Made by a program: the position numbers and the translations under genes. The notes under the pieces are model-generated. The model was not told where the DNA came from. It was given only the letters and a program-made list of their open reading frames with translations, and ran no database searches. A stretch of DNA of 64,000 nucleotides, from assembly GCA_034002665.1 (NCBI GenBank), contig JAVFAA010000001.1, forward strand, positions 300,748 to 364,747. Reading direction: 5' to 3'. This DNA comes from Dissulfurispiraceae bacterium (GTDB lineage Bacteria; Nitrospirota; Thermodesulfovibrionia; Thermodesulfovibrionales; Dissulfurispiraceae). This document shows positions 34,322 through 46,763 of the stretch, in pieces; the first letter of the stretch is position 1, and every line of letters starts with the position of its first letter.

Positions 34322-35290
34322 ATGACACATCATGATAAATTTAAACGCGTGCTCTGGTTTGACAGCCAGGTAAAACACCAAAGGCATCCCAATGCAGGTA
34401 ATATTGCTGCACACTTTGAGGTGTCTTTAAGAACCGCACAAAGAGATATTGGTTATCTCAGAGATGATCTTAACGCTCCGCTGCATTTTAACCGGTCAAA
34501 AAACGGCTACTGCTACACTGATGAGACCTTTTCACTCCCTGCCTGCTGGCTTAATGAAGACAATGTAATAGCCCTCGCTCTGTCTGCCAGGCTCGCCTCA
34601 ACAATCCCTGATAAAGAGATAAAAAATGATCTCTCAGGAATAATACAAAGAGTCCTCTGCATATTCAGCAGCGCAACAGGGCTTAACACTGAGGCGCTCT
34701 CAGAAAAGGTTTCAGTAAAAAATGTAGAGTACGCAGCTATTGACGAACAAATATTTCATGCAGTAGTAAAAGCATTGTTCGATGCCTGCCCGATCAGCAT
34801 AACCTATTACTCGCCGCACAAAAACCAGACAACAGAGCGTACCATAATGCCGCTCCATCTGATGCACTATATGGGCAGCTGGCATCTCATAGCCTTCTGC
34901 TCATCCAGAAAAGATCTGCGTAATTTCAGCATATCCAGAATAAAATCCATACAGTTGTCAGACAGGATAATAAAAGTTCCTAAATCCATTGGTTCAATAA
35001 AAAACTATATACGAAGGCACTTTGGCATAATGCAGGGCGGTAGAACGCAAAATGTAAGATTAAAAATATCATCATCCATAGCAGCTTGGGTGAGTGAGCA
35101 GATATGGCACCCTGAGCAGAAGATGACATACTCAAAAGACGGCTCAATCGAACTTTCATTGCCTGTCGGTGATTTCAGAGAAATAAGACGCCGCATCCTG
35201 AGCTACGGTGCTGATATAGAAGTGCTGGAACCCAGAGAACTCAAAAAGGACATTAAAAACGAGATCTTGAGGATGGCTAAAAATATTTAG
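34322..35290 (+). CDS. HTH + WYL-domain transcriptional regulator
   Basis: 322 aa with an N-terminal HTH (IAAHFEVSLRTAQRDIGYLR) and a central WYL-type domain (ITYYSPHKNQTTERTIMPLHLMHYMGSWHLIAFCSSRKDLRNFSISRI). Confidence 0.8.
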   Translation: MTHHDKFKRVLWFDSQVKHQRHPNAGNIAAHFEVSLRTAQRDIGYLRDDLNAPLHFNRSKNGYCYTDETFSLPACWLNEDNVIALALSARLASTIPDKEIKNDLSGIIQRVLCIFSSATGLNTEALSEKVSVKNVEYAAIDEQIFHAVVKALFDACPISITYYSPHKNQTTERTIMPLHLMHYMGSWHLIAFCSSRKDLRNFSISRIKSIQLSDRIIKVPKSIGSIKNYIRRHFGIMQGGRTQNVRLKISSSIAAWVSEQIWHPEQKMTYSKDGSIELSLPVGDFREIRRRILSYGADIEVLEPRELKKDIKNEILRMAKNI

Positions 35291-35327
35291 CTGCCCTGAC
35301 ATAAAATGTCATAGTGGATGTGATAGG
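35248..35327. repeat. Direct repeat copy 1 (3' end of the WYL gene plus 37 bp downstream)
   Basis: 80 bp aligning without gaps to 36467-36546. About 70/80 positions are identical by manual alignment. Confidence 0.8.
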
Positions 35328-35418
35328 ATTTTAGTTAAAGAACCGTTTGCCGCAGTTTGAGCTTGTTGTTAGCAGACGAGCATTAATAAGAAATGTTTCT
35401 AAAATAACGAGGTTAAAT

Positions 35419-35748
35419 ATGGATACACATCTTGCAGTATTTAAAGGCAGACAGATAAGGCGGACACTTCACAATAATGAATGGTGGTTTTCGGTTGCTG
35501 ACATTGTGGAAGCTTTGACCGACACCAGAAACGCGACAGATTACATCAAGAAAATACGTCTTCGTGATGAGGAGTTAGCCAAAGGGTGGGGACAAATTGT
35601 CACCCTCCTTTCAATGGAAACATCTGGTGGCAGGCAAAAGATTAACTGTGCCAATACCGAGGGTGTCTTCCGAATAATCCAGTCTGTGCCATTACCTAAA
35701 GCGGTCTTTGATCTTACGTTGGCTATTCATGGAAGGAGAACATTATGA
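35419..35748 (+). CDS. Bro-N domain protein (short/truncated)
   Basis: [49 protein letters not shown] matches the Bro-N pattern. The ATG at 35419 has an upstream GAGG. Its stop overlaps the next gene's start (ATGA). Confidence 0.6.
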
Positions 35749-36260
35749 CTACCACGCTTCCTACTGAGGTCATCGAGAAAAAGATACTCCTCATCCGGGA
35801 AGAAAAAGTCATGCTCGATGCCGACCTTGCAGAGTTATACGGGGTAGAGACCAAAATGCTCGTCAGAGCAGTTAAGAGGAATGCCGAGCGCTTCCCGGCA
35901 GACTTCATGATCCAGCTCGATATGAACGAGTTCGACAACTTGAGGTTCCAATTTGGCACCTCAAGCCGCTGGGGTGGCCGCCGGTATCTTCCGTATGCCT
36001 TTACCGAACAAGGAGTTGCCATGCTCTCCAGTGTCCTGAACAGCAAGCGCGCCGTGCAGGTGAACATAGAGATCATGCGTGCATTTGTGAAGCTCCGACA
36101 AATGCTCTCGTCCAATGCAGAACTGGCGCGCAGGCTCAATACGCTCGAAAAGAAATACGACTCCCAGTTCAAGGCAGTCTTTGACGCGATCCGGCAGCTC
36201 ATGATACCTCCGGAGCCGAAGAAAAAGAAAATCGGCTTTAAACGTGAGGTTGAAGAATGA
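35745..36260 (+). CDS. ORF6N (KilA-N-related) domain protein
   Basis: 171 aa. [60 protein letters not shown] is the typical ORF6N signature. The gene is GC-richer than its flanks. Confidence 0.8.
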
Positions 36261-36466
36261 GACCAGTCTATAAGAGCAGCAAAGTGACCGGCACTGCACA
36301 GAAAGACCTTGAAAAAAAGACCGGTAAAAAGGTTGTTTCTTCAGAGAACTATTTGACTGAGACGGAAAGGCTGAAGAGGATAGAGAGAAAGAAGTAGTGA
36401 ATAACTGCTCAAGCAGTATAGCGGTTTAAACGGATTAAGTAGTTTAAGCTTGTTTTTAGTAAGAGA

Positions 36467-36546
36467 GGACATTGAAAACGAGATTTTAAAGATGGCTAAA
36501 AATATTTAACAGCCCTGACATAAATTGGCATAGTGGGTGTGGTAGG
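36467..36546. repeat. Direct repeat copy 2 (relic WYL-gene 3' end, about 100 bp upstream of cas12a)
   Basis: It encodes ..DIENEILKMAKNI-stop, versus DIKNEILRMAKNI-stop in the intact gene. It aligns to 35248-35327. Confidence 0.8.
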
Positions 36547-36647
36547 CTGGAAGAGATGAGGTGGAGATGAATGAAAAAAGCAGCAGAACTAAAGCCTAAC
36601 AAGTTTTAGCTGATCAATATATCTTATATAGTAAAAGGAGATAACGC

Positions 36648-39600
36648 ATGGATAACAAGGGGCTTTTTGACAATTTTACAAATCAGTACCAAGTTTCAAA
36701 AACGCTTCGTTTTGAGCTTAAACCACAGGGTAAAACAGCAGAAACTATTAAAGCAAAAGGTTTTTTGGATAGGGACTATAAAAGAGCAGAAGATTATAAG
36801 AGAGCAAAAAAACTTATTGATGAATACCATAAGGACTTTATAGAAAAGGCACTTTCTGATAAAAAGTTATCCAGCCTTGAACAATATTATGAAGAATATA
36901 CGAGTTTGATGTCTAAGCCCATTGGAGAAAGAGATTCAAAAAAATTCGCTGGTATTAACGATGCTATGCGTAAGGAGATTGGAGAATGGCTGAAAGATAA
37001 CCCTCTGAAAGACGAAAAAAAGCTAATTCAGGAAATAGTTCCTGAGTTTTTAAGAAACCAGGGGAGAGATGAAGATGCAGAGGTGTTGTTAAGTTTTAAG
37101 GGGTTTACAACATATTTTAAAGGCTTTAATGAAAATAGAGAAAATATCTATACAAATAAAGAACAGTCAACTGCTATTGCATATAGGATTGTTGATGAAA
37201 ATCTGCCAAGATTTGTAGCAAATCTTTATACCTTTAATGATCGTTTAAGAAATCACCAGATCGACTTTTCAGAAGTTGAAAGTCTGATTGAGACAGAATT
37301 TAGTGGCGCTAAATTGGAAGATGTTTTTACTATCGCATATTTCAATTATTGTCTTACTCAAAAAGGAATTGACCGCTACAATGCTGTAATCGGCGGTAAA
37401 ACTGATTTCAACGGGAAGAAAATTCAAGGAATAAATGAAAAAATAAATCTTTTTAGACAGAGAGAAAAACTATCTCCTAAACAGGCTCCACTTTTAACCG
37501 TGCTTTATAAACAGATATTGAGTGATAGAGTAAGTCTTTCTTTTTTACCTGAAAAGTTCAAATCAGCAAATGAATTGGTTGCCGCAATAAGAGATTTTTA
37601 TTCAGAAGGCATTAATGGGTTTATAAAAGATGGACAAAAAAGTAATGTGATGGATGAAATAGAGAACCTATTTGCCAAAAAACTTAATCCTAATGATTGC
37701 GATCTATCTAAAGTTCATCTACAAAGCAGTTTTTTAACTGTTCTTTCGCATCAGTTGTTTGGAGATTTTAGTGTAATCAAAGATGCATTAAACGCATATA
37801 TTGAAAGTACATTCAAAACTAAAAAGGAAAAAGAAAAACAGAACAAAAGAAGATACTACACCATTGAGGAAATTGAGGCAGCATTAAAACAATATGTTCA
37901 GGATACAGAAATTGATAACAAACAAAAGACAAAAGAAATTTTAGATCAGGCAAATCCAATTATATATTATCTCAATGCACTTGTTAACAATGTCGAGATA
38001 GATGGCAAAAAACAGAAAGTCAATATTATTGCACATTTCAGAAGCCTGCAAGAAAATATACACAATGTTCTTGATAAAGATTATCGGTCTAATAGTGAAC
38101 TCCTTAGTGACAAAGGACATATCGCTGCAATTAAGAATTATCTTGACAGCTATAATGTTGTACTGCATTTTATCAAAGCGCTTTCTGTTCCGTCTGTCGC
38201 AGACAAAGAGATGGATCTTGTTGAAAAAGATGCACTCTACGCTGAATTTGAGGAGTTGTTATCACAACTTCAACTCGTTGTGCCGCTTTATAACAAAGTA
38301 CGAAACTTTATAACTCAAAAGCCATATTCAGTAGAAAAGTATAAATTGAACTTTGATAATGTCACTCTGCTTGATGGTTGGGATGTTAACAAAGAATCTG
38401 ATAATACATGTGTTATTCTGTGTAAAGACAGCTGCTACTATTTGGCTATTATGGATAAAAAACATAGCAGTATTTTTCGGGACATCAAGAGCACTGCTGA
38501 TGATGTGGAATGTTACGAAAAAATGTTTTACAAGTTATTGCCGGGTCCAAATAAAATGCTGCCAAAGGTGTTTTTTTCTAGCAGCAGGATTGAAGAATTT
38601 GCGCCATCTGCAGAGCTGCTAAATAAATATAAGGCTGGCACTCATAAAAAAGGAGATAATTTCTTACTCAGCGACTGTCATGCCCTTATTGATTTCTTCA
38701 AATCATCAATAGCTAAACATGAAGATTGGAAACAATTCAATTTTGATTTCTCTCCTACCAGTGCCTACCGTGACATTAGCGATTTTTACAAAGAGGTAGC
38801 ACACCAAGGATATAAGATCACTTTTAATAGGGTATCTGCCAAATATGTGGATCAGCTTGTTGCTGAAGGCAAATTATATCTCTTTCAAATTTATAATAAA
38901 GACTTTTCAGCTTATAGCAAGGGCAAACCAAGCCTATATACTCTTTATTGGAAAGCTGTTTTTGATCCTGAAAACCTCCAAGATGTTGTTGTCAAACTAA
39001 ATGGTGAGGCAGAGGTCTTTTTCAGACAAGCATCAATACCAGAAGGGCTAAAAACAGTGCATCCAGAAAACATACCTATCGACAACAAAAGCCCCTATAA
39101 TCCCAAGAAGCAGAGCGTATTTAAATACAAAATCATTAAAGATAAGAGATACACTGAGGATAAGTTTGCTTTTCATGTGTCTATAACGCTTAATTTTAAA
39201 GCAGGAGATGAGTACAAATTCAACGACAGGGTTAAGCAGGCTATAGGCGAATTGCCTGTTGATGATTTAAGGATAATAGGCATAGACAGGGGGGAGAGGC
39301 ATCTTGCTTACTATTCACTTATCAATTCTAAAGGAGAGATACTCAAACAAGATTCATTTAACATTATTGAGAATGAGGTTAAAGGCGCTAAATACAGAAC
39401 CGACTACCATGCAAGTCTTGTTGCCAGAGAAGAAGAAAGAGATAAAAATAGAAAGTCCTGGGGTGCGATCGAAACAATCAAAGAGCTTAAAGAGGGGTAT
39501 CTCTCACAGGTTGTGCATAAAATCGCTAAGTTGATGATTGAGCATAATGCTGTTGTTGCTCTCGAAGACCTCAACTTTGGGTTTAAACGCGGCAGAATGA

Positions 39601-40445
39601 AGGTTGAACGACAAGTGTATCAGAAGCTCGAAAAGATGCTGATAGACAAGCTGAACTACCTCGTCTTCAAGGATAGAGAGCATAGAAATAAAGGGGGCAT
39701 TTTAAATGCCTACCAGCTTGCAAATAAATTTGATAGTTTCAAAGCAATAGGTAAACAGACCGGATTTCTCTTTTATGTGCCTGCTGCTAATACCAGTAAA
39801 ATAGATTTTGCTACCGGATTTGTAAACCTTTTATACCCTAAATATGAAAACGAAAAACAGGCTAAGGATTTCTTCAGCAAATTTAAGGGCATAAAGTATA
39901 ATTCTGGTAAAGACTATTTTGAATTTAAAATTGATTACAACAGTGTGAGAACTAATGGTGCAGAGAGTTTGAAAAACAGCATATGGACAATCTGTACCAT
40001 TGGAAAAGAACGGTTTCAGTATTATCCAACAACAAAAGAATACAAGAGTGTTGATGTTACCACTGAGATTAAGTCGTTGCTTTCAAATAAGGGTATAGAA
40101 TTTGAAATCGGTAAAGATATACAAGACAGCATTGTAAATTTGGGCGACACGAAGCTCTACAAAAATCTTGTTTTTTACCTTAAACTTGTTTTGCAAATGA
40201 GATACACAGATGGTCAGGGCAGGGATTTTATACTTTCTCCGGTTGCAAATGCTGATGGAAATTTCTTCTGTTCTGAAAAAGCTTTAAACGCCGAACCAAA
40301 AGATGCAGATGCAAATGGAGCGTATCATATTGCTTTGAAGGGCTTACTGCTTATGCACAAAATTAAAAATGGTGAGAGCAAACTGGCTATAAGCAATAAG
40401 GAATGGTATGACTTTGTTCAGGATAAGGCATATAAATCTAAATAA
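36648..40445 (+). CDS. cas12a: CRISPR-associated endonuclease Cas12a (Cpf1), type V-A effector
   Basis: 1265 aa with a hallmark N-terminus FTNQYQVSKTLRFELKPQGKT. RuvC-I is IGIDRGERHLAY (Asp codon 39285-39287). A bridge-helix-like segment reads WGAIETIKELKEGYLSQVVHKI. RuvC-II is VALEDLNFGFK (Glu codon 39564-39566) and RuvC-III is DADANGAYHIALKG (from 40302). There is no HNH motif. An AAGGAG RBS lies upstream. Confidence 0.97.
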   Translation: MDNKGLFDNFTNQYQVSKTLRFELKPQGKTAETIKAKGFLDRDYKRAEDYKRAKKLIDEYHKDFIEKALSDKKLSSLEQYYEEYTSLMSKPIGERDSKKFAGINDAMRKEIGEWLKDNPLKDEKKLIQEIVPEFLRNQGRDEDAEVLLSFKGFTTYFKGFNENRENIYTNKEQSTAIAYRIVDENLPRFVANLYTFNDRLRNHQIDFSEVESLIETEFSGAKLEDVFTIAYFNYCLTQKGIDRYNAVIGGKTDFNGKKIQGINEKINLFRQREKLSPKQAPLLTVLYKQILSDRVSLSFLPEKFKSANELVAAIRDFYSEGINGFIKDGQKSNVMDEIENLFAKKLNPNDCDLSKVHLQSSFLTVLSHQLFGDFSVIKDALNAYIESTFKTKKEKEKQNKRRYYTIEEIEAALKQYVQDTEIDNKQKTKEILDQANPIIYYLNALVNNVEIDGKKQKVNIIAHFRSLQENIHNVLDKDYRSNSELLSDKGHIAAIKNYLDSYNVVLHFIKALSVPSVADKEMDLVEKDALYAEFEELLSQLQLVVPLYNKVRNFITQKPYSVEKYKLNFDNVTLLDGWDVNKESDNTCVILCKDSCYYLAIMDKKHSSIFRDIKSTADDVECYEKMFYKLLPGPNKMLPKVFFSSSRIEEFAPSAELLNKYKAGTHKKGDNFLLSDCHALIDFFKSSIAKHEDWKQFNFDFSPTSAYRDISDFYKEVAHQGYKITFNRVSAKYVDQLVAEGKLYLFQIYNKDFSAYSKGKPSLYTLYWKAVFDPENLQDVVVKLNGEAEVFFRQASIPEGLKTVHPENIPIDNKSPYNPKKQSVFKYKIIKDKRYTEDKFAFHVSITLNFKAGDEYKFNDRVKQAIGELPVDDLRIIGIDRGERHLAYYSLINSKGEILKQDSFNIIENEVKGAKYRTDYHASLVAREEERDKNRKSWGAIETIKELKEGYLSQVVHKIAKLMIEHNAVVALEDLNFGFKRGRMKVERQVYQKLEKMLIDKLNYLVFKDREHRNKGGILNAYQLANKFDSFKAIGKQTGFLFYVPAANTSKIDFATGFVNLLYPKYENEKQAKDFFSKFKGIKYNSGKDYFEFKIDYNSVRTNGAESLKNSIWTICTIGKERFQYYPTTKEYKSVDVTTEIKSLLSNKGIEFEIGKDIQDSIVNLGDTKLYKNLVFYLKLVLQMRYTDGQGRDFILSPVANADGNFFCSEKALNAEPKDADANGAYHIALKGLLLMHKIKNGESKLAISNKEWYDFVQDKAYKSK

Positions 40446-41002
40446 TGGAGAGTTACATACCGATATCGTTTTTGAATGATTATATATTTTGCCCGAGGTC
40501 AATATATTTTCATCAGCTGTATGGCAAGCTTGACACACAGCTATACCAGCAAAAGCCTCAAATATCTGGCAAGGCAGCACACGCTGCAATTGATGGCAAA
40601 ACATACTCAACGCGCAGAAATATATTACAAGGTGTTGAGATATATTCAGAGCGTTACGGAATATGCGGCAAAATAGACACTTTTGATGTTGATATCGGAA
40701 AACTGGTCGAAAGAAAACGGCAGATAAAGACTATTTATGATGGATATATATTTCAGGTTTATGCTCAATATCATGCACTTGTTGAGATGGGATATAAGGT
40801 TAAAACTATAGATCTGTATGATATAAGCCATAACAAAAGCCATGCTGTTGCACTGCCGGAATCATGCCCTGAAATGCAGCAGAAGTTTGAAGAGCTTATA
40901 GATAAAATTAACCGATTTGACATGTATGCATCTGATTTTTGCCCTAATCAGTCAAAGTGCAGCAATTGTATATACTCAAACCTTTGTGATTATGGATTAT
41001 GA
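40445..41002 (+). CDS. cas4: CRISPR-associated exonuclease Cas4
   Basis: 185 aa with an N-terminal Cys (YIFCPRS), a RecB-like D..ExK motif (GKIDTFD..LVERKRQ) and a C-terminal CxxxxxCxxCxxxxxC cluster (CPNQSKCSNCIYSNLC). It overlaps the cas12a stop by 1 nt. Confidence 0.9.
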   Translation: MESYIPISFLNDYIFCPRSIYFHQLYGKLDTQLYQQKPQISGKAAHAAIDGKTYSTRRNILQGVEIYSERYGICGKIDTFDVDIGKLVERKRQIKTIYDGYIFQVYAQYHALVEMGYKVKTIDLYDISHNKSHAVALPESCPEMQQKFEELIDKINRFDMYASDFCPNQSKCSNCIYSNLCDYGL

Positions 41003-41964
41003 TGAGTCTGCCTGACTTTAGAGAAAAGAATATAGTCATCTGCTTTGCTTCTGAAGGGCAGAAGGTGTCATTCAAGAACGATAATCTTGTCATTAAAGAT
41101 GCTGAAGAGCAGATTGTTTTGCAAACAACCTGTCACAAAATCTTCTCTTTGTGGCTTGCGGGCAATATATCCCTAACATCAGGAATTTTGGAGAAGAGTA
41201 AGAAATTTGGATTTTCGATCTATATGCTATCAAACAGCTGCAGGCCATATGGATTATGGAGCAGCGCTACTGAGGGTAACTTTGTATTGCGCAAAAAACA
41301 ATATGACTATTCAGAATTGGATATAGCAAGACATCTGGTAAATAATAAAATATTTAATCAGACCGAACTGCTTAGAAGCATCCGTAATAAGCAAAATATA
41401 ACAAAGACAGCCATTGGTCAAATGTTGAAATATGCAGAAATGGCAGTTGAGGCAGAAGATCTGCATCAGCTTCTTGGCATTGAGGGAGTATCTTCCCGTC
41501 TGTTTTTCAGCAATTGGTTTGTGGATATGCCCTGGACAGGCAGAAAACCAAGAGCAAAGATGGATATTATCAATACTACGCTGGATATTGGCTATACATA
41601 TCTATTCAATTTTGTTGAATGCTTGCTAAATCTGTATGGCTTTGATTTGTATAAAGGGGTTTATCATCAATCTTTTTATCAAAGGAAATCTCTGGTTTGC
41701 GATATTGTTGAGCCGTTCAGATGCATTATTGATAAGCAGGTTAAACGAGCATATGGTTTAAAACAGCTCCAACCGGATGACTTTAGGCAGCAAAAAGGTC
41801 AATTTTTTTTAAAGATAGAAAAGAACAAAGATTATACACGCTGGCTTATACAAAATATTCTTGAACACAAAGAATATATCTTTAGTTATGTTCAAGACTA
41901 TTATCGTTGTTTTATGCGAGACAAGACGATTGACCAGTATCCTGTTTTCAGGATAAAAGATTAG
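40999..41964 (+). CDS. cas1: CRISPR-associated endonuclease Cas1
   Basis: 321 aa with a Cas1-like C-terminal half (LLGIEGVSSRLFF.., NTTLDIGYTYLFN.., GVYHQSFYQRKSLVCDIVEPFR). It has a 4-nt overlap with cas4. Confidence 0.93.
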   Translation: MMSLPDFREKNIVICFASEGQKVSFKNDNLVIKDAEEQIVLQTTCHKIFSLWLAGNISLTSGILEKSKKFGFSIYMLSNSCRPYGLWSSATEGNFVLRKKQYDYSELDIARHLVNNKIFNQTELLRSIRNKQNITKTAIGQMLKYAEMAVEAEDLHQLLGIEGVSSRLFFSNWFVDMPWTGRKPRAKMDIINTTLDIGYTYLFNFVECLLNLYGFDLYKGVYHQSFYQRKSLVCDIVEPFRCIIDKQVKRAYGLKQLQPDDFRQQKGQFFLKIEKNKDYTRWLIQNILEHKEYIFSYVQDYYRCFMRDKTIDQYPVFRIKD

Positions 41965-41973
41965 ATTGTTTTT

Positions 41974-42246
41974 ATGCTTCTTATTTCTTATGATATATCT
42001 GATAACAAATTGCGGACTGAATTTTCCAAATATCTGAAAAAGTTTGGTGGAAGGCTGCAATACTCGGTCTTTGAAATCAGAAACAGCGAAAGGGTGCTTG
42101 AGAATATCACAACGCACATTACGCACTATTTTGAGAAAAAGTTTTCTCAAACTGACAGCATAATGATCTTTAGGCTTAGCAAGCAGTGCAAGATTACCCG
42201 CTTTGGTTATGCAAAAAATGACGAGACCGATCTTTTGATTGTCTGA
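41974..42246 (+). CDS. cas2: CRISPR-associated endoribonuclease Cas2
   Basis: 90 aa. MLLISYDISDNKLRTEFSKYLKKFGGRLQYSVFEI is the typical Cas2 N-terminus. Confidence 0.9.
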   Translation: MLLISYDISDNKLRTEFSKYLKKFGGRLQYSVFEIRNSERVLENITTHITHYFEKKFSQTDSIMIFRLSKQCKITRFGYAKNDETDLLIV

Positions 42247-42383
42247 TCTGCAAACCTCAGTCTTAATGTTTTAAAAGGTGCTTTTAATGGCTGCAAACCA
42301 GTACAAAAAACATAAAGTGTCAAAAAATATGTCAGAAAACCTGAGTTTTTCTGCAAAAAATGGGTGCTTTTTAGACAACACCT
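42247..42383 (+). promoter_or_regulatory. CRISPR leader
   Basis: 137-bp A/T-rich noncoding stretch between the cas2 stop and the first repeat. It contains repeated CTGCAAA motifs (42248, 42291, 42351). Confidence 0.5.
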
Positions 42384-43566
42384 GCCTAAAGCACCTAATG
42401 AATTTCTACTATCGTAGATTCTGCTGGTTATCAGCTTGACAGTCGCAGCCTAAAGCACCTAATGAATTTCTACTATCGTAGATGGTTTATTCATTAAGTA
42501 GCTTGCAATCAAAGCCTAAAGCACCTAATGAATTTCTACTATCGTAGATTCCTTTGTTGCCACCTCGCTGAATTCGAGCCTAAAGCACCTAATGAATTTC
42601 TACTATCGTAGATTCTATCGGCTGCCCAAAGGTAGTAACCCCGCCTAAAGCACCTAATGAATTTCTACTATCGTAGATCTTACTACCGGGAGGGGAACGC
42701 TTGCATTAGGCCTAAAGCACCTAATGAATTTCTACTATCGTAGATGAATTTGAGGACTGGCAGACAGTCGCGCCTAAAGCACCTAATGAATTTCTACTAT
42801 CGTAGATTAAATGTGCTATGTGCCCATATTCGTATGCCTAAAGCACCTAATGAATTTCTACTATCGTAGATCTCTTGGGGTTGTATATTTTTCCCGGAGC
42901 CTAAAGCACCTAATGAATTTCTACTATCGTAGATCGCTAAGTGCATGCGTTGCACTGATGGCCTAAAGCACCTAATGAATTTCTACTATCGTAGATAACT
43001 TGATCATGTGATCCCGCTCAACGCCTAAAGCACCTAATGAATTTCTACTATCGTAGATAATTTGATGCGTTTCTTTAACTGGCCGCCTAAAGCACCTAAT
43101 GAATTTCTACTATCGTAGATTTCTCCTGCTGTTGTTCATCAGGTTTCTTTGCCTAAAGCACCTAATGAATTTCTACTATCGTAGATTTGCTGGCTAATTA
43201 CAAGCTTAGGAGGAGCCTAAAGCACCTAATGAATTTCTACTATCGTAGATCGCTAAGTGCATGCGTTGCACTGATGGCCTAAAGCACCTAATGAATTTCT
43301 ACTATCGTAGATAACTTGATCATGTGATCCCGCTCAACGCCTAAAGCACCTAATGAATTTCTACTATCGTAGATAATTTGATGCGTTTCTTTAACTGGCC
43401 GCCTAAAGCACCTAATGAATTTCTACTATCGTAGATTTCTCCTGCTGTTGTTCATCAGGTTTCTTTGCCTAAAGCACCTAATGAATTTCTACTATCGTAG
43501 ATTTGCTGGCTAATTACAAGCTTAGGAGGAGCCTAAAGCACCTAATGAATTTCTACTATTGTAGAT
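42384..43566 (+). CRISPR. Type V-A CRISPR array, 19 repeats / 18 spacers (13 unique)
   Basis: The 36-nt repeat GCCTAAAGCACCTAATGAATTTCTACTATCGTAGAT starts at 42384, 42448, 42514, 42578, 42643, 42710, 42772, 42836, 42899, 42961, 43023, 43085, 43151, 43215, 43277, 43339, 43401, 43467 and 43531. Spacers are 26-31 nt. The last repeat has one C>T change at 43560. Confidence 0.98.
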
Positions 43567-43660
43567 ATGAACCTGTCTGAAGATGTCTTCTCAGCTTTTC
43601 CATGCTATAATTGTTCATATACAATCTGGTTGGTGAATATGCCTGTCAAGGAGGTGTGTT

Positions 43661-43828
43661 ATGCCTGCTTATGAGTATGAGTGCAAGGAATGCAAAAAGG
43701 TTTTTATGGTCTTTTTCTCCCTCAAGGAGTTTGATTCAAATCCAAGAATCAAGTGCCCTCACTGCGAAAGCGATAATACTGTGAGAAGAATATCAGGATT
43801 TTTCGCTAAAACCAGCAAAAAATCATAG
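43661..43828 (+). CDS. FmdB-family zinc-ribbon protein
   Basis: 55 aa, below the track cutoff. MPAYEYECKECKKVF..KCPHCES is the typical CxxC..CxxC putative regulatory zinc ribbon. An AAGGAGG RBS lies at 43648-43654. Confidence 0.7.
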   Translation: MPAYEYECKECKKVFMVFFSLKEFDSNPRIKCPHCESDNTVRRISGFFAKTSKKS

Positions 43829-43944
43829 CTGCATACCTGAAACAGCGGTTTTTGGACTATTTGCTTTTCTGATGACAGGGTTTTGCGACCTGATTATCAA
43901 AAAGCTCTTTAATTATTTGTTATATTGTGATAAAGTTAATCCTG

Positions 43945-44838
43945 ATGGGTAAGATTCTCAAGCAAAAACGGGAAGAGCTTGGCGAAGAACTCAGGGATAT
44001 CTCTCTGGTGGTGCGTATCAGAACAACCTATCTCAAGGCGATAGAGGAAGAAAATTTTGAGAAGCTTCCTGCTGAAGTTTACGCTAAAGGTTACATACGC
44101 GAATACGCCCGCTATCTGAATGTGCCTTTTGCTGATGCTGTGTCAGCATATCAGCAGTATCTTGAAGATTCCAGAGACAAGCTGGCTGCACTGTCATATA
44201 ATCCTGTTGGCTCCTATGCTTCCAAATGCTATGTTCCATCAACATCAAAACCTTCCCTGTTTCTTCCTAAACTTTTTATATTATGCATTTCAGTTGCCAT
44301 TTTGTTTGGTATATATGTTTTTGTCAGGGACAATTGGCAGGTTATGGGCAGGGATACTGTGGCAGAGATGCCCAAGCCAATGCAGCCTCCGGCTGAGACG
44401 CTGGTTGCACAGCCGCATGCTCAGGCAGATCATCAGTCTATGCCTGCAAAGCAGAGTATTCCTCAAAGTGCTTCTGCACAGGATTCTGCTTCAGTTTCTT
44501 TAAATCAGGCTGATGCAGCAAAACCCCAGACCGTAAAGCCAAAGTATAATCTTGTTGTCAGTGCAACAGATCAGGTCTGGCTCGAGATAAATAGTGATGA
44601 CAAGACCAGAAACGATATCATCATGAATGCTGGAGAGACCCAGAGCTTCAGAGCAGATGGTAAATTCAAGATCAAGATTGGTAATGCTGCAGGCGTAAGG
44701 TTTAGTTTTAATGGCAGAGAGATCGGACCTCTTGGGGCCAAGGGAGAGGTTGTGTATCTGACCCTACCAGAGTCTCAGCAGTCTGCTGAAAGGCCTTTAT
44801 TGCCAGGCAGTCAGGCCAGCGTTCCAGTACACGACTGA
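43945..44838 (+). CDS. rodZ: RodZ-like cytoskeleton-associated HTH membrane protein
   Basis: It has an N-terminal HTH (LKQKREELGEELRDISLVVRIRTTYLKAIEEENFEKLP..YAKGYIREYARYL), a single TM and a C-terminal DUF4115-like domain. An alternative GTG start lies at 43927. Confidence 0.75.
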   Translation: MGKILKQKREELGEELRDISLVVRIRTTYLKAIEEENFEKLPAEVYAKGYIREYARYLNVPFADAVSAYQQYLEDSRDKLAALSYNPVGSYASKCYVPSTSKPSLFLPKLFILCISVAILFGIYVFVRDNWQVMGRDTVAEMPKPMQPPAETLVAQPHAQADHQSMPAKQSIPQSASAQDSASVSLNQADAAKPQTVKPKYNLVVSATDQVWLEINSDDKTRNDIIMNAGETQSFRADGKFKIKIGNAAGVRFSFNGREIGPLGAKGEVVYLTLPESQQSAERPLLPGSQASVPVHD

Positions 44839-44849
44839 CAGTCTGTCTT

Positions 44850-46763
44850 ATGAAAGCCGGCAGACTTAGCGACTTTATCAATAAAAAGACTCTTATCATC
44901 TTTTTTCTTCAATTCTTCCTGATTACCGCATTTCTTGGACACAGGCATTGGCGCAATTCTGACGCTGAGTGTGTAAGGTGCCACTCAGATTCAAAAAAGA
45001 TGGAGCTGCTTGGCTATTCCCAGTTTGTTGTTACAAGAGCGGCAGCTCAGGAACAGAGCAGGCATCCGAATGTGAAGTGCCACCAGTGTCATCTCGGCAA
45101 TGGCAGGGCAAAGAGTGCGGATGAAGCTCATAAGGGTATGCTCAAGGCAATGCTTATTGGCTACGACTATAATGTGCTTGACCGCAAGACAACAGCCCCT
45201 GACTCTATGATGCCAAGAGGTGATGACAAGATAAGGGAGATGCTCCCGGTGGTTACAGAGGATGGAGAGACATTTACTCATCCTGATGTGAAAAATGTGC
45301 TATGGCATGACAGGGATCCGGTTACCCTGGGTTATGATCCTAAAATAGCTCAGAAGACATGCGGCACATCCAACTGCCATCCGGAGATGGTTGATCAGTT
45401 CAGCAAAACACATATGGGCGGCAATATGAGGCAGCGCAGCATGAAGACATGGACAGGAGAGTTTGGGCCTCACAACTGCGGACCTTCATTTGCTGATCTG
45501 CCGCCAGTAGAGATTTTTAAAAAGACAGGTTTTGACTTTAAGAATACATCAAGGATCGCTGATAATCTGAATGTACCATTCACAAAAGAGCAGGCAATGG
45601 CAAAGCAGAAGGCATGCAATGTATGCCATACAGGATGTCTCGACTGCCACTATGCTCCGGACAAGGAAAAGGGTGTGCACCACTTTGTGAACAAGCCGCC
45701 TGCTCAGAGCTGCGGAGGCTACGGCAGAGGCACTAATATATGCCATCCCGGAGCTATGCAGAGCCGCAGGGGGGAAACATTCATAGGCGGAGACTATTCG
45801 CTGCCAACCGGCATGAAGCCTGATGTGCATTACACGAAAGGCGTACATTGCGTTGAATGCCATATGACAGGTCCAAAGGGCATGGGTGATAAACAGCGCA
45901 AGGCAACCTGTCAGGACTGCCATGTTGAAATAGAGGAGGCTCATAAAAAGAGTGTTCATAAAAATCTCGACTGTGCTGCATGCCATATCTCAGAACTGCG
46001 GGGGTACCAGATAACTATTTGGGGGCCCGGCAAGGTGGCTGACCAGCCTAATCCATTCAAAAAATATTCGCTCTATTACGGAATTCAGAGCCCGCCGATA
46101 TTGTTTAAAGACCAGAAAGGAAAATGGATGCCGGTCAAGGTCTGGCCGCACAGCGTTGGAAATATAAAAAATGAGGTTAAGCCCTCATCAGGCGTGATGT
46201 TCAGACCTACAGGCGGAGAAACAAGAGATGCATATTATGTGATGGGCACTTTTGATGCAAAGGCTAACAACAGACATCTGCTCTGGCTGGAGATGCAGCA
46301 GGCAGCTCATCCATTCGGCAGACCGAGGGATTGTTCAAGTTGTCATGCTTCAACTCTCCAGAAATCAATGTCACGATGGGAGTATATGGATGATCAGGGC
46401 GCTCTTGAGCAGTTCAGGGGCGGGTACAATATAGTTGCTGATTCAAAGAGCCTCAGGATAGAGAATCTTGCAGCTGATTCAAGGATAGTGCCTGCGGATG
46501 GATATAAGCTGGAGGATTTTGCATCCTGGCTGTTCTTCAGGGATAAGTGGGTTGTGCCCGGAGATTTTACGATAAAGGCAGATCCTATCCAGTATAAAAA
46601 ACATTCTGCATATTTTGAAAAGACAAAGAGGGATATCTCAGCAATAGATAAACGGACAGGGAGGTTCAGCAGGAAGATGGCAAAAGATTATGCCGGAGCT
46701 AAAGGCGCTGCCCTGCATAATAGTATGGATGCTGATTCCCTGTTAAAAGGGTTCAGAAAATAA
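44850..46763 (+). CDS. Membrane-anchored multihaem c-type cytochrome
   Basis: 637 aa with an N-terminal TM/signal anchor. There are eight canonical CxxCH motifs (CVRCH, CHQCH, CNVCH, CLDCH, CVECH, CQDCH, CAACH, CSSCH) plus CGTSNCH and CGGYGRGTNICH. Confidence 0.85.
   Translation: MKAGRLSDFINKKTLIIFFLQFFLITAFLGHRHWRNSDAECVRCHSDSKKMELLGYSQFVVTRAAAQEQSRHPNVKCHQCHLGNGRAKSADEAHKGMLKAMLIGYDYNVLDRKTTAPDSMMPRGDDKIREMLPVVTEDGETFTHPDVKNVLWHDRDPVTLGYDPKIAQKTCGTSNCHPEMVDQFSKTHMGGNMRQRSMKTWTGEFGPHNCGPSFADLPPVEIFKKTGFDFKNTSRIADNLNVPFTKEQAMAKQKACNVCHTGCLDCHYAPDKEKGVHHFVNKPPAQSCGGYGRGTNICHPGAMQSRRGETFIGGDYSLPTGMKPDVHYTKGVHCVECHMTGPKGMGDKQRKATCQDCHVEIEEAHKKSVHKNLDCAACHISELRGYQITIWGPGKVADQPNPFKKYSLYYGIQSPPILFKDQKGKWMPVKVWPHSVGNIKNEVKPSSGVMFRPTGGETRDAYYVMGTFDAKANNRHLLWLEMQQAAHPFGRPRDCSSCHASTLQKSMSRWEYMDDQGALEQFRGGYNIVADSKSLRIENLAADSRIVPADGYKLEDFASWLFFRDKWVVPGDFTIKADPIQYKKHSAYFEKTKRDISAIDKRTGRFSRKMAKDYAGAKGAALHNSMDADSLLKGFRK

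What the first reader, a model, noticed from the sequence alone, without database searches (positions are those of the whole stretch)
42384..43566. Repeat ends in the Cas12a handle hairpin and no tracrRNA-like anti-repeat is visible
- **Hairpin.** The last 19 nt of each 36-nt repeat read AATTTCTACTATCGTAGAT. This gives a perfect 5-bp stem (TCTAC/GTAGA) around a 4-nt loop (TATC), followed by a single T before the spacer.
- **Match to known handles.** This is the conserved Cas12a crRNA 5' handle (AAUUUCUACU-loop-GUAGAU). The loop differs from those of the well-known Fn/As/Lb repeats (UGUU, UCUU, UAAGU).
- **No anti-repeat.** Scanning the intergenic DNA around the locus by eye (36261-36647, 42247-42383, 43567-43660), I found no stretch complementary to the repeat longer than 9 nt.
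- **Implication.** The system should be tracrRNA-independent, with the effector itself cutting the pre-crRNA upstream of the hairpin.
Basis: partly seen in the sequence, partly recalled or inferred. Interest (0 to 1): 0.6.

Follow-up and report, generated by a model that had tools for sequence, protein, structure and literature searches.

The report
Textbook Cas12a repeat hairpin, no tracrRNA
This is an ordinary, intact Cas12a (type V-A) CRISPR array whose repeats end in the standard guide-RNA hairpin and need no helper RNA; the one twist is two short stretches in the leader that are complementary to the discarded front part of the repeat.

Summary
There are 19 repeats of 36 nt at 42384-43566. 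Eighteen are identical and end in AATTTCTACTATCGTAGAT: a 5-bp stem TCTAC/GTAGA, loop TATC, then one T.

The array lies behind cas12a-cas4-cas1-cas2. The 1265-aa effector matches the Cas12a equivalog model end to end. It keeps the RuvC residues (D880, E973, D1221) and the WED RNase triad that cuts pre-crRNA (H805, K814, K831).

In 58 arrays beside Cas12a homologues from many phyla, the same 19-nt handle is invariant outside the loop. The UAUC loop is a minority natural variant, dominant in 2 of the 58. This handle differs from the consensus only at position -7.

No anti-repeat of tracrRNA type exists. Nothing complementary to the repeat exceeds 9 nt in the window or 11 nt in the 2.0-Mb genome, which is chance level. 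The genome has one array and one cas1.

One qualification applies. The leader carries two imperfect complements of repeat positions 1-13, the part removed from mature crRNA. Such cognate leader complements recur in a subset of V-A loci, next to a conserved leader motif.

crRNA ends could not be mapped. The PAM is unresolved.

Verdict: a new member of a known kind, of low interest.

The parts
36648..40445 (+). cas12a (1265 aa), the effector that also processes its own pre-crRNA
   Evidence: TIGR04330 scores 1304 bits over the full model. Pfam finds REC1, REC2, PI, RuvC and Nuc. RuvC D880/E973/D1221, Nuc R1185 and RNase H805/K814/K831 are present. The nearest database homologue is 64% identical.
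40445..41002 (+). cas4 (type V subtype)
   Evidence: TIGR04328 cas4_PREFRAN, 227 bits.
40999..41964 (+). cas1 (type V subtype), the only cas1 in the genome
   Evidence: TIGR04329 cas1_PREFRAN, 415 bits. It is the single PF01867 match in the 99.6%-complete genome.
41974..42246 (+). cas2
   Evidence: PF09827 and TIGR01573.
42247..42383 (+). Leader (137 nt)
   Evidence: It lies between the cas2 stop and repeat 1, and the degenerate repeat is at the opposite end of the array. The sigma-70 consensus scan found no promoter-like site in it.
42250..42268 (+). Conserved V-A leader motif GCAAACCTCAGTCTTAATG; function unknown
   Evidence: The pattern GCAAACCNNGGTCTTAATG, with up to 4 substitutions, occurs in 35 of 57 leaders of Cas12a loci from many phyla, usually just after cas2.
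42276..42291 (+). Distal leader complement of repeat positions 1-13 (AGGTGCTTTTAATGGC)
   Evidence: It has a 9-nt exact core. The predicted RNA duplex is 12 bp with an internal loop, at -16.8 kcal/mol. The cognate duplex lies in the top 2.1% of duplexes with non-cognate repeats.
42361..42374 (+). Proximal leader complement of repeat positions 2-13 (GGGTGCTTTTTAGA)
   Evidence: The predicted duplex is -14.4 kcal/mol. In the MFE fold of leader plus repeat 1 it pairs with the 5' part of repeat 1 while the handle hairpin stays intact. It overlaps a terminator-like hairpin on the minus strand.
42384..43566 (+). CRISPR array: 19 repeats of 36 nt and 18 spacers of 26-31 nt, 13 of them unique
42401..42419 (+). 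Example of the 19-nt crRNA 5' handle (repeat 1). Stem arm TCTAC 42405-42409, loop TATC 42410-42413, stem arm GTAGA 42414-42418, U(-1) 42419. The predicted Cas12a cut lies between 42400 and 42401.
   Evidence: Fold. Positions -19, -18, -10 and -8 were not forced by my search pattern and are 100% conserved in 54 distinct repeats. The cut position is inferred from PMC7090318.
43531..43566 (+). Terminal repeat with the loop change TATC>TATT at 43560
   Evidence: TATT is the commonest loop in the family, dominant in 38 of 58 arrays.
42746..42771 (+). Spacer 6, the only spacer with protospacers found
   Evidence: It matches 25 of 26 nt in two ~50-kb groundwater contigs (L085, L086). Its first 20 nt match exactly in four 33-41-kb IMG/VR viral contigs.

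Best explanation
This is a canonical, intact type V-A CRISPR-Cas12a system.

Inferred mechanism:
- The array is transcribed from the leader on the cas2 side, on the + strand.
- Each repeat folds at its 3' end into the Cas12a handle: stem UCUAC/GUAGA, loop UAUC, and the conserved A(-18), U(-16), U(-10) and U(-1) of the pseudoknot.
- Cas12a binds this handle. Its WED-domain RNase site (H805, K814, K831) cuts the pre-crRNA 4 nt upstream of the stem, between repeat positions 17 and 18. This needs neither tracrRNA nor RNase III.
- The product is a 19-nt repeat tag followed by the spacer. Unknown host nucleases would then trim its 3' end.
- The RuvC site (D880, E973, D1221) then cuts matching DNA.

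Shown here: the gene content, the catalytic residues, the repeat sequence and fold, family-wide conservation of the handle, and the absence of any anti-repeat.

Inferred by homology: the transcription direction, the exact cut site and the activity.
For: - Array and repeat.
- Hairpin.
- Cas12a equivalog at 1304 bits, with PREFRAN-type Cas4 and Cas1 plus Cas2.
- End-to-end alignment to FnCas12a structures, with H805/K814/K831 opposite H843/K852/K869. The role of these residues is given in PMC11127173.
- RuvC and Nuc motifs IGIDRGERH, ALEDLNFGFK, DADANGAYH and LQMRY. Their conservation in 32 homologues.
- Every array detected without bias beside 80 Cas12a homologues ends in the same handle.
- Loop variation with invariant stems and invariant -19, -18, -10 and -8.
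- The loop is solvent-exposed and tolerant of change: PMC11031708.
- No anti-repeat by exact words, genome-wide words or RNA duplex energy.
- No Rfam hit in 35000-45000.
- A single array and a single cas1 in the genome.
- None of 57 V-A leaders has 8 nt or more complementary to the handle.
Against:
- No sigma-70-like promoter was found in the leader. The host's promoter type is unknown.
- The one protospacer family has 5' flanks CCTG, CCTT, CCTA and TTTA, not a uniform TTTV. Positions -3 to -1 are a Leu codon, so this neither supports nor refutes a T-rich PAM.
- In a four-repeat transcript, the MFE fold pairs hairpin arms of different repeats. This is expected for repeated palindromes and says nothing either way.
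Confidence: 0.93

Rival explanations
1. The system is still self-processing, but the two leader-encoded complements of repeat positions 1-13 are functional. In this reading the leader RNA, or the leader DNA, pairs with the discarded 5' part of the first repeat (or of any repeat). That pairing would modulate folding or processing of the first crRNA, transcription into the array, or polarised spacer integration. This adds to the main explanation rather than replacing it.
For: - Two copies are aimed at the same repeat segment.
- The MFE fold of leader plus repeat 1 forms the proximal helix and keeps the handle hairpin.
- Cognate leaders beat swapped-locus controls in three tests. Complements of 9 nt or more occur in 5 of 57 loci against 0.3 expected. 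Local-alignment scores exceed the 99th percentile of controls in 6 of 57 against 0.57 expected, with Mann-Whitney p = 3.5e-5. The RNA duplex is in the top 5% in 13 of 57 against 2.9 expected, with this window at 0.021.
- By eye, compensatory differences are visible. Repeat C2 faces leader G here, where L002 has T2 facing A. In L052, repeat G7 faces leader C. L018 shows G-U pairs.
Against: - The feature is clear in only about a fifth to a third of the loci.
- This window's score sits only at the 99th-percentile boundary.
- The fold z-score of leader plus repeat is -1.65, which is not significant.
- The duplexes are short (-14 to -17 kcal/mol). They did not reach the top 10 of the locus-wide scan, which used 50-nt windows at 10-nt steps.
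- In vitro, F. novicida Cas1-Cas2 needs only leader positions -3 to -1 (PMC13034035).
- Many V-A repeats have a palindromic 5' segment, which inflates matches in both senses. Sense-orientation controls were also slightly enriched.
- The transcription start is unknown, so the elements may not be in the RNA at all.
Confidence: 0.25
2. The system depends on a tracrRNA or other trans RNA, as in types V-B, V-E, V-F, V-G and V-K.
For: None was found. The only complements to the repeat are the 9- and 8-nt cores in the leader.
Against: - No antisense match of 12 nt or more exists in the whole genome.
- Duplex energies are at chance level.
- The leader complements target repeat positions 1-13, which mature Cas12a crRNAs do not retain, and not the handle.
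- The effector is an end-to-end Cas12a with an intact RNase triad.
Confidence: 0.02
3. The array is read from the opposite strand, so the repeat-derived tag lies 3' of the spacer.
For: - The hairpin is palindromic and folds equally well on either strand.
- No promoter was detected in the leader.
Against: - In 56 of the 57 other loci analysed for orientation, the repeat has this same orientation relative to cas12a; L047 is the exception.
- A(-19)A(-18)U(-17)U(-16) and the trailing U are conserved only in this sense.
- The degenerate repeat is at the far end.
- The conserved leader motif lies on the cas2 side.
- A terminator-like hairpin on the minus strand at 42382-42363 would stop antisense read-out.
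Confidence: 0.02
4. The locus is a decaying relic that no longer makes functional crRNAs.
For: - A five-spacer block is duplicated exactly.
- Only one of 13 unique spacers has a detectable target.
- A Bro-N/ORF6N module lies between the WYL regulator gene and cas12a.
Against: - All four cas ORFs are intact and score above the curated cut-offs.
- All catalytic residues are present.
- Eighteen of the 19 repeats are identical.
- Spacer 6 matches a phage-like groundwater contig at 25 of 26 nt, which suggests fairly recent acquisition.
Confidence: 0.04

Closest known systems
Type V-A CRISPR-Cas12a of Francisella novicida U112 (FnCas12a; PDB 5ng6, 5mga, 6i1k)
   Same: - The operon order is cas12a-cas4-cas1-cas2-leader-array, with 36-nt repeats and spacers of about 26-31 nt.
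- The handle is AAUUUCUACU-loop-GUAGAU.
- The RNase triad and the RuvC and Nuc residues are conserved.
- No tracrRNA is present.
- The alignment runs end to end with E = 0.
   Different: - The loop is UAUC rather than UGUU.
- The repeat starts GCCTAA rather than GTCTAA, so the terminal TCTA/TAGA palindrome used by Fn Cas1 (PMC13034035) is imperfect at position 2.
- The protein is about 35 residues shorter (1265 aa against about 1300 aa for the FnCas12a PDB chains).
Cas12a arrays with the same UAUC loop: two Paludibacteraceae MAGs (L016, L038); the commonest family loop is UAUU
   Same: - The last 17 nt (TTTCTACTATCGTAGAT) are identical in both.
- The last 19 nt are identical in L016 and L038 apart from the base before AATTT.
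- The terminal repeat here carries the common UAUU loop.
   Different: - Their 5' halves are unrelated (GGCTATAGTAATTTTAT and GGCTAGGAGATTTTTTA).
- Their Cas12a proteins are only 46-47% identical to this one.
Nearest Cas12a homologues: unnamed metagenomic proteins at 60-64% identity, a groundwater 'Deltaproteobacteria' MAG (L001, 65% best segment), and the synthetic ancestral construct ReChb (PDB 8qwd, 53%)
   Same: They share the full domain architecture. L001 also shares the cas4 and cas1 genes downstream.
   Different: - Nothing in the searched database exceeds 64% identity apart from the protein itself.
- L001 shares no flanking genes, so the cas operon sits in a different genomic context.
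- The L001 contig ends before any array.
tracrRNA-dependent type V systems (Cas12b, e, f, g, k) and scoutRNA systems (Cas12c, d)
   Same: Both are class 2 systems with a RuvC effector.
   Different: Those systems need a second RNA that pairs with the part of the repeat kept in the guide. Here no such RNA gene is detectable, and the effector family is one that self-processes.

Membership tests
Type V-A CRISPR-Cas (Cas12a/Cpf1) | Single large effector with Cas12a architecture (REC1, REC2, WED, PI, RuvC, Nuc) that matches the curated equivalog model | tested here: met
   TIGR04330 scores 1303.7 bits against a cut-off of 300, over model positions 1-1287 of 1288. PF18501, PF21918, PF22222, PF18516 and PF18510 all match.
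Type V-A CRISPR-Cas (Cas12a/Cpf1) | RuvC catalytic D/E/D and the Nuc arginine | tested here: met
   D880, E973, D1221 and R1185 align to Fn D917, E1006, D1255 and R1218. They are invariant in 32 homologues.
Type V-A CRISPR-Cas (Cas12a/Cpf1) | WED-domain RNase residues for pre-crRNA self-processing (Fn H843, K852, K869) | tested here: met
   H805, K814 and K831 lie opposite them in the HMMER alignment to 5ng6. They are at least 90% conserved. Their role is given in PMC11127173.
Type V-A CRISPR-Cas (Cas12a/Cpf1) | Repeat whose 3' 19-20 nt is the handle AAUUUCUACU-N(3-5)-GUAGAU | tested here: met
   This holds in all 19 repeats. The same handle is found in every array beside the Cas12a homologues.
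Type V-A CRISPR-Cas (Cas12a/Cpf1) | No tracrRNA or anti-repeat | tested here: met
   The leader has short complements to repeat positions 1-13 only, not to the handle.
Type V-A CRISPR-Cas (Cas12a/Cpf1) | Adaptation module of the V-A (PREFRAN) subtype: cas4, cas1, cas2 | tested here: met
   TIGR04328 scores 227 bits, TIGR04329 scores 415 bits, and TIGR01573 matches.
Type V-A CRISPR-Cas (Cas12a/Cpf1) | 5' T-rich PAM (TTTV or TTN) on the non-target strand | tested here: inconclusive
   Only one protospacer family was found. Its flanks are CCTG (twice), CCTT (twice), CCTA and TTTA. Positions -3 to -1 are a Leu codon (YTN).
Type V-A CRISPR-Cas (Cas12a/Cpf1) | Mature crRNA consists of a 19-20-nt repeat tag at the 5' end plus the spacer, made by the effector | not testable with these tools
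Cas12a2 (RNA-triggered abortive-infection nuclease that shares Cas12a repeats) | An effector that uses the Cas12a handle but diverges from Cas12a in its recognition and PAM-interacting parts | tested here: not met
   The protein matches the Cas12a equivalog over its full length, including the PI domain PF22222 (E = 6.9e-38) and Nuc. I did not compare it with a Cas12a2 sequence directly.
tracrRNA-dependent type V (V-B, V-E, V-F, V-G, V-K) | A nearby non-coding RNA gene with an anti-repeat pairing to the guide-retained part of the repeat | tested here: not met
   Across 57 V-A leaders, none has 8 nt or more complementary to the handle.

The most novel reading that the evidence does not exclude
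A subset of type V-A loci, this one included, would carry a functional leader module that I did not find in the papers I searched. It consists of a conserved motif just after cas2 (GCAAACCNNGGTCTTAATG, here 42250-42268), followed by one or two cis-encoded anti-repeats. These co-vary with the 5' part of the cognate repeat, which is discarded from the mature crRNA. As RNA, the module would pair with the first repeat upstream of the Cas12a cut site and so control maturation of the newest crRNA or read-through into the array. As DNA, it would help mark the leader-proximal repeat for integration.
Probability: 0.25. Interest if true: 0.55.

Novelty: new member of a known kind. Interest (0 to 1): 0.2.

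Why it matters
For the finding as written, it matters little. It confirms that a new Cas12a orthologue follows the textbook tracrRNA-free design. The orthologue is 64% identical to its nearest relative in the searched database, and both that relative and the spacer target point to a groundwater organism.

There are two practical points:
- A guide for this enzyme can be designed directly as AAUUUCUACUAUCGUAGAU plus a spacer.
- The UAUC loop adds one more natural variant to the loop positions already known to tolerate change.

The more interesting lead is the leader. A conserved motif and cognate short anti-repeats recur across phyla in V-A loci. If functional, they would be a regulatory layer of Cas12a systems that the papers I could search do not describe.

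Tried and rejected
- **Rfam.** An E-value-mode search of 35000-45000 gave no hit, so there is no CRISPR-DR family or known sRNA match.
- **Protospacers.**
  - The array against 50,697 phage records gave only a chance 24-nt hit at E = 3.
  - Spacers 1-5, 7 and 13 gave nothing in IMG/VR.
  - Spacer 6 gave hits, but the PAM cannot be read from them because the flank is a conserved Leu codon.
- **Same repeat elsewhere.** There was no exact copy in the JGI metagenome contigs.
- **Self-targets.** The only notable hit is 21 of 22 nt of spacer 12 at C1:579267-579288. I took it as chance or low complexity and did not pursue it.
- **CreR-like element.** A degenerate mini-repeat upstream of cas12a, as in bioRxiv 10.1101/2023.03.10.532045, was not found: no handle-like sequence with 5 or fewer edits occurs in 36200-36700.
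- **Multi-repeat fold.** The fold of a four-repeat transcript was uninformative because arms of different repeats pair with each other.
- **Promoter scan.** Nothing was found in the leader, but the scan covers only sigma-70 consensus promoters.
- **Synteny.** Comparison with the closest locus, L001, shows that only the cas genes are shared.
- **Other arrays.** The two other spaced-repeat candidates in the genome are Lys/Ala-rich coding repeats, not CRISPRs.
- **Host taxonomy.** It was not determined. I ran no further search on it.
Full report
**1. What is in the sequence**

The region 42384-43566 holds 19 direct repeats of 36 nt, GCCTAAAGCACCTAATGAATTTCTACTATCGTAGAT. Eighteen are exact. The last copy (43531-43566) has a single C>T change at 43560. 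None is expected by chance. The 18 spacers are 26-31 nt long and 13 are unique, because spacers 9-13 are repeated exactly as spacers 14-18.

RNAfold gives a 5-bp stem UCUAC/GUAGA, a 4-nt loop UAUC and one trailing U, at -4.5 kcal/mol. Its z-score against shuffles is -1.86. The hairpin alone is therefore only modestly better than chance. Its significance comes from the comparison in section 3.

**2. Surroundings**

Directly upstream on the same strand lie four cas genes:
- cas12a, 36648-40445, 1265 aa
- cas4, 40445-41002
- cas1, 40999-41964
- cas2, 41974-42246

A 137-nt leader follows. The effector scores 1304 bits against the curated Cas12a equivalog TIGR04330, over model positions 1-1287 of 1288. 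It carries the Pfam REC1, REC2, PI, RuvC and Nuc domains. Cas4 and Cas1 match the type-V-specific (PREFRAN) models.

Against solved structures the protein aligns end to end with the synthetic ancestral construct ReChb and with FnCas12a. I counted along that alignment; chain numbering in 5ng6 is native numbering plus 2. H805, K814 and K831 lie opposite FnCas12a H843, K852 and K869. These are the acid, the transition-state stabiliser and the base of the pre-crRNA RNase site in the WED domain (PMC11127173).

The RuvC and Nuc residues are D880 (IGIDRGERH), E973 (ALEDLNFGFK), D1221 (DADANGAYH) and R1185 (LQMRY). In an alignment of 32 homologues these four are invariant, and the RNase triad is at least 90% conserved.

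The nearest protein in the 5.8-billion-protein set is 64% identical, so this is an unstudied orthologue. The genome is 2.01 Mb in 6 contigs and 99.6% complete. It has one cas1 and one CRISPR array. Two other spaced-repeat candidates are coding repeats of Lys/Ala-rich proteins.

**3. Is it the Cas12a handle?**

I fetched 80 loci encoding Cas12a homologues of 42-65% identity from many phyla, including Moraxella bovis and Segatella. A k-mer search that knows nothing about the handle found arrays in 58 of them. Every one ends in AATTTCTACT-N(3-5)-GTAGAT. The one other repeat family it reported, in L001, is not a CRISPR array.

Among 54 distinct repeats with 4-nt loops, positions -19, -18, -10 and -8 are 100% conserved. 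My later pattern did not force these positions. The 17 nt upstream are variable.

Dominant loops in the 58 other arrays:

| Loop | Arrays |
|---|---|
| UAUU | 38 |
| UGUU | 10 |
| UAUC | 2 |
| UGUC | 2 |
| UAUGU | 2 |
| UUUU | 2 |
| UAUUA | 1 |
| UGUUU | 1 |

The two UAUC arrays are the Paludibacteraceae MAGs L016 and L038. This handle therefore differs from the family consensus at one position only, -7, where it has C instead of U. The degenerate last repeat has reverted to the commonest form.

The literature agrees that stems are nearly identical between orthologues. It also reports that the loop varies, is solvent-exposed and tolerates changes (PMC11031708).

**4. Is there an anti-repeat?**

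Three tests bear on this:
- **Exact words in the window.** The longest complement to the repeat outside the array is 9 nt (AGGTGCTTT, 42276-42284). There is no match of 10 nt or more on either strand.
- **Exact words in the genome.** There is no antisense match of 12 nt or more. The counts of 10-mers (41 and 35) and 11-mers (10 and 10) fit the naive expectations of 52 and 12.5.
- **RNA duplex energy.** With G-U pairs and bulges allowed, the best duplex among 2146 windows around the locus is -23.8 kcal/mol and lies inside cas12a. A perfect anti-repeat gives -60.5. The 0.1% quantile of the genomic background is -23.2, so the best value is what chance gives.

Rfam finds nothing in 35000-45000. 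No degenerate handle of the CreR type lies upstream of cas12a.

**5. A qualification: the leader**

The 9-mer is not isolated. AGGTGCTTTTAATGGC (42276-42291) can pair with repeat positions 1-13, giving 12 bp with an internal loop at -16.8 kcal/mol. A second element, GGGTGCTTTTTAGA (42361-42374), can pair with positions 2-13 at -14.4 kcal/mol.

In the MFE fold of leader plus repeat 1 plus spacer 1, the proximal element pairs with the 5' part of repeat 1 and the handle hairpin is kept. The overall z-score is only -1.65.

Both elements target the part of the repeat that lies upstream of the Cas12a cut and is absent from mature crRNA. They cannot act as a tracrRNA anti-repeat for the handle. Across 57 V-A leaders, none has 8 nt or more complementary to the handle.

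Cognate leaders are complementary to the 5' part of their own repeat more often than controls:

| Test | Observed (of 57) | Expected from controls |
|---|---|---|
| Exact complement of 9 nt or more | 5 | 0.3 (leaders and repeats swapped between loci) |
| Local-alignment score above the control 99th percentile | 6 | 0.57 (Mann-Whitney p = 3.5e-5) |
| Cognate RNA duplex in the top 5% of non-cognate duplexes | 13 | 2.9 |

In the third test this window ranks at 0.021.

Reading the leaders side by side, I see differences that keep pairing. Repeat C2 faces leader G here, where L002 has T2 facing A. In L052, repeat G7 faces leader C. L018 shows G-U pairs. These are by-eye observations, not a formal covariation test.

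A 19-nt motif, GCAAACCNNGGTCTTAATG, lies just after cas2 (here 42250-42268). It is present in 35 of 57 leaders, Moraxella bovis included.

In vitro, F. novicida Cas1-Cas2 needs only leader positions -3 to -1 and the terminal TCTA palindromes of the repeat (PMC13034035). The known integration requirements therefore do not explain these upstream elements.

Earlier notes of this scan on other genomes describe similar leader complements. I treated them as leads.

**6. Direction and mechanism**

Several features support transcription on the + strand:
- the cas genes are co-oriented with the array;
- the leader and its conserved motif lie on the cas2 side;
- the mutated repeat is at the far end;
- the sense-specific conserved bases AAUU(-19 to -16) and U(-1) are present;
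- in 56 of the 57 other loci analysed for orientation the repeat has the same orientation relative to cas12a (L047 is the exception).

Cas12a cuts 4 nt upstream of the hairpin and leaves a 19-20-nt repeat tag that folds as a pseudoknot (PMC7090318). Here that places the cut between G17 and A18 of each repeat, for example between 42400 and 42401. These steps are inferred by homology.

**7. Targets and PAM**

Of the eight spacers searched in IMG/VR, only spacer 6 (42746-42771) has protospacers:
- 25 of 26 nt match in two ~50-kb contigs from a groundwater metagenome (L085, L086);
- the first 20 nt match exactly in four 33-41-kb IMG/VR viral contigs.

All hits lie in the same conserved gene, phrog_19042 of unknown function. 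The mismatches are all at the PAM-distal end, as expected for a Cas12a seed at the 5' end of the spacer.

The 5' flanks are CCTG (twice), CCTT (twice), CCTA and TTTA. Positions -3 to -1 are a Leu codon, so the flanks are compatible with a relaxed YTN PAM or with PAM escape. They prove nothing either way.

**8. Verdict**

This is a new orthologue of a thoroughly known system, and its handle differs from the consensus by one loop base. The only part that goes beyond the textbook is the conserved leader motif together with the cognate short anti-repeats. They deserve a proper covariation study and a deletion test.

Noticed in passing
window 42896-43195 and 43212-43511: An exact 300-nt tandem duplication at an offset of 316 nt repeats spacers 9-13 as spacers 14-18. 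It could be a recent recombination between repeats or an assembly artefact. Read data could not be consulted.
   Followed up: partly
window 42250-42268; also L002, L018, L023, L026, L052, L079 and others: A conserved motif, GCAAACCNNGGTCTTAATG, lies just downstream of the cas2 stop in 35 of 57 Cas12a leaders from many phyla. Its function is unknown. It does not look like a sigma-70 promoter.
   Followed up: partly
window 42276-42291 and 42361-42374: Two imperfect complements of repeat positions 1-13 lie in the leader. Cognate complements of this kind are enriched in V-A leaders relative to swapped-locus controls.
   Followed up: partly
window 42363-42382, minus strand: A terminator-like hairpin plus T-run on the minus strand sits at the leader-repeat junction (GGTGTTGTCTAAAAAGCACC then CATTTTTT). 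It would stop antisense transcription leaving the array. It is a consensus match only, with 2 found against 1.1 expected.
   Followed up: no
window 42746-42771; L085:1857-1882, L086, L081-L084: Spacer 6 targets a conserved gene (phrog_19042, function unknown) of ~33-51-kb phage-like contigs. The best match, 25 of 26 nt, is in groundwater metagenome contigs at high coverage. The flank there is CCTG rather than TTTV, which may reflect PAM escape.
   Followed up: partly
G000 C1:579267-579288: The first 22 nt of spacer 12 match the host chromosome with one mismatch (E = 4e-4). I did not examine it for a PAM or gene context.
   Followed up: no
window 34322-36260: An HTH-WYL-WCX regulator gene (34322-35290) is separated from cas12a by Bro-N (35347-35748) and ORF6N/Rha-like (35745-36260) genes of phage type. 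WYL regulators are known partners of CRISPR loci. The insertion may have uncoupled this one from cas12a.
   Followed up: no
L001 compared with window 26000-47000: The closest Cas12a locus (65% identity, a groundwater MAG) shares cas12a, cas4 and cas1 but none of the flanking genes. This fits horizontal movement of the cas operon.
   Followed up: partly
G000 C1:63865-64130 and C1:1061011-1061400 (outside the window): Two genes encode long Lys/Ala-rich tandem repeats (AKKAAPKKAVAKK...), resembling histone H1-like or other DNA-binding proteins. My array detector picked them up as false CRISPR candidates.
   Followed up: no
window 42384-42389: The repeat begins GCCTAA where 72% of V-A repeats have T at position 2. 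The terminal TCTA/TAGA palindrome, which F. novicida Cas1 prefers (PMC13034035), is therefore imperfect here.
   Followed up: no
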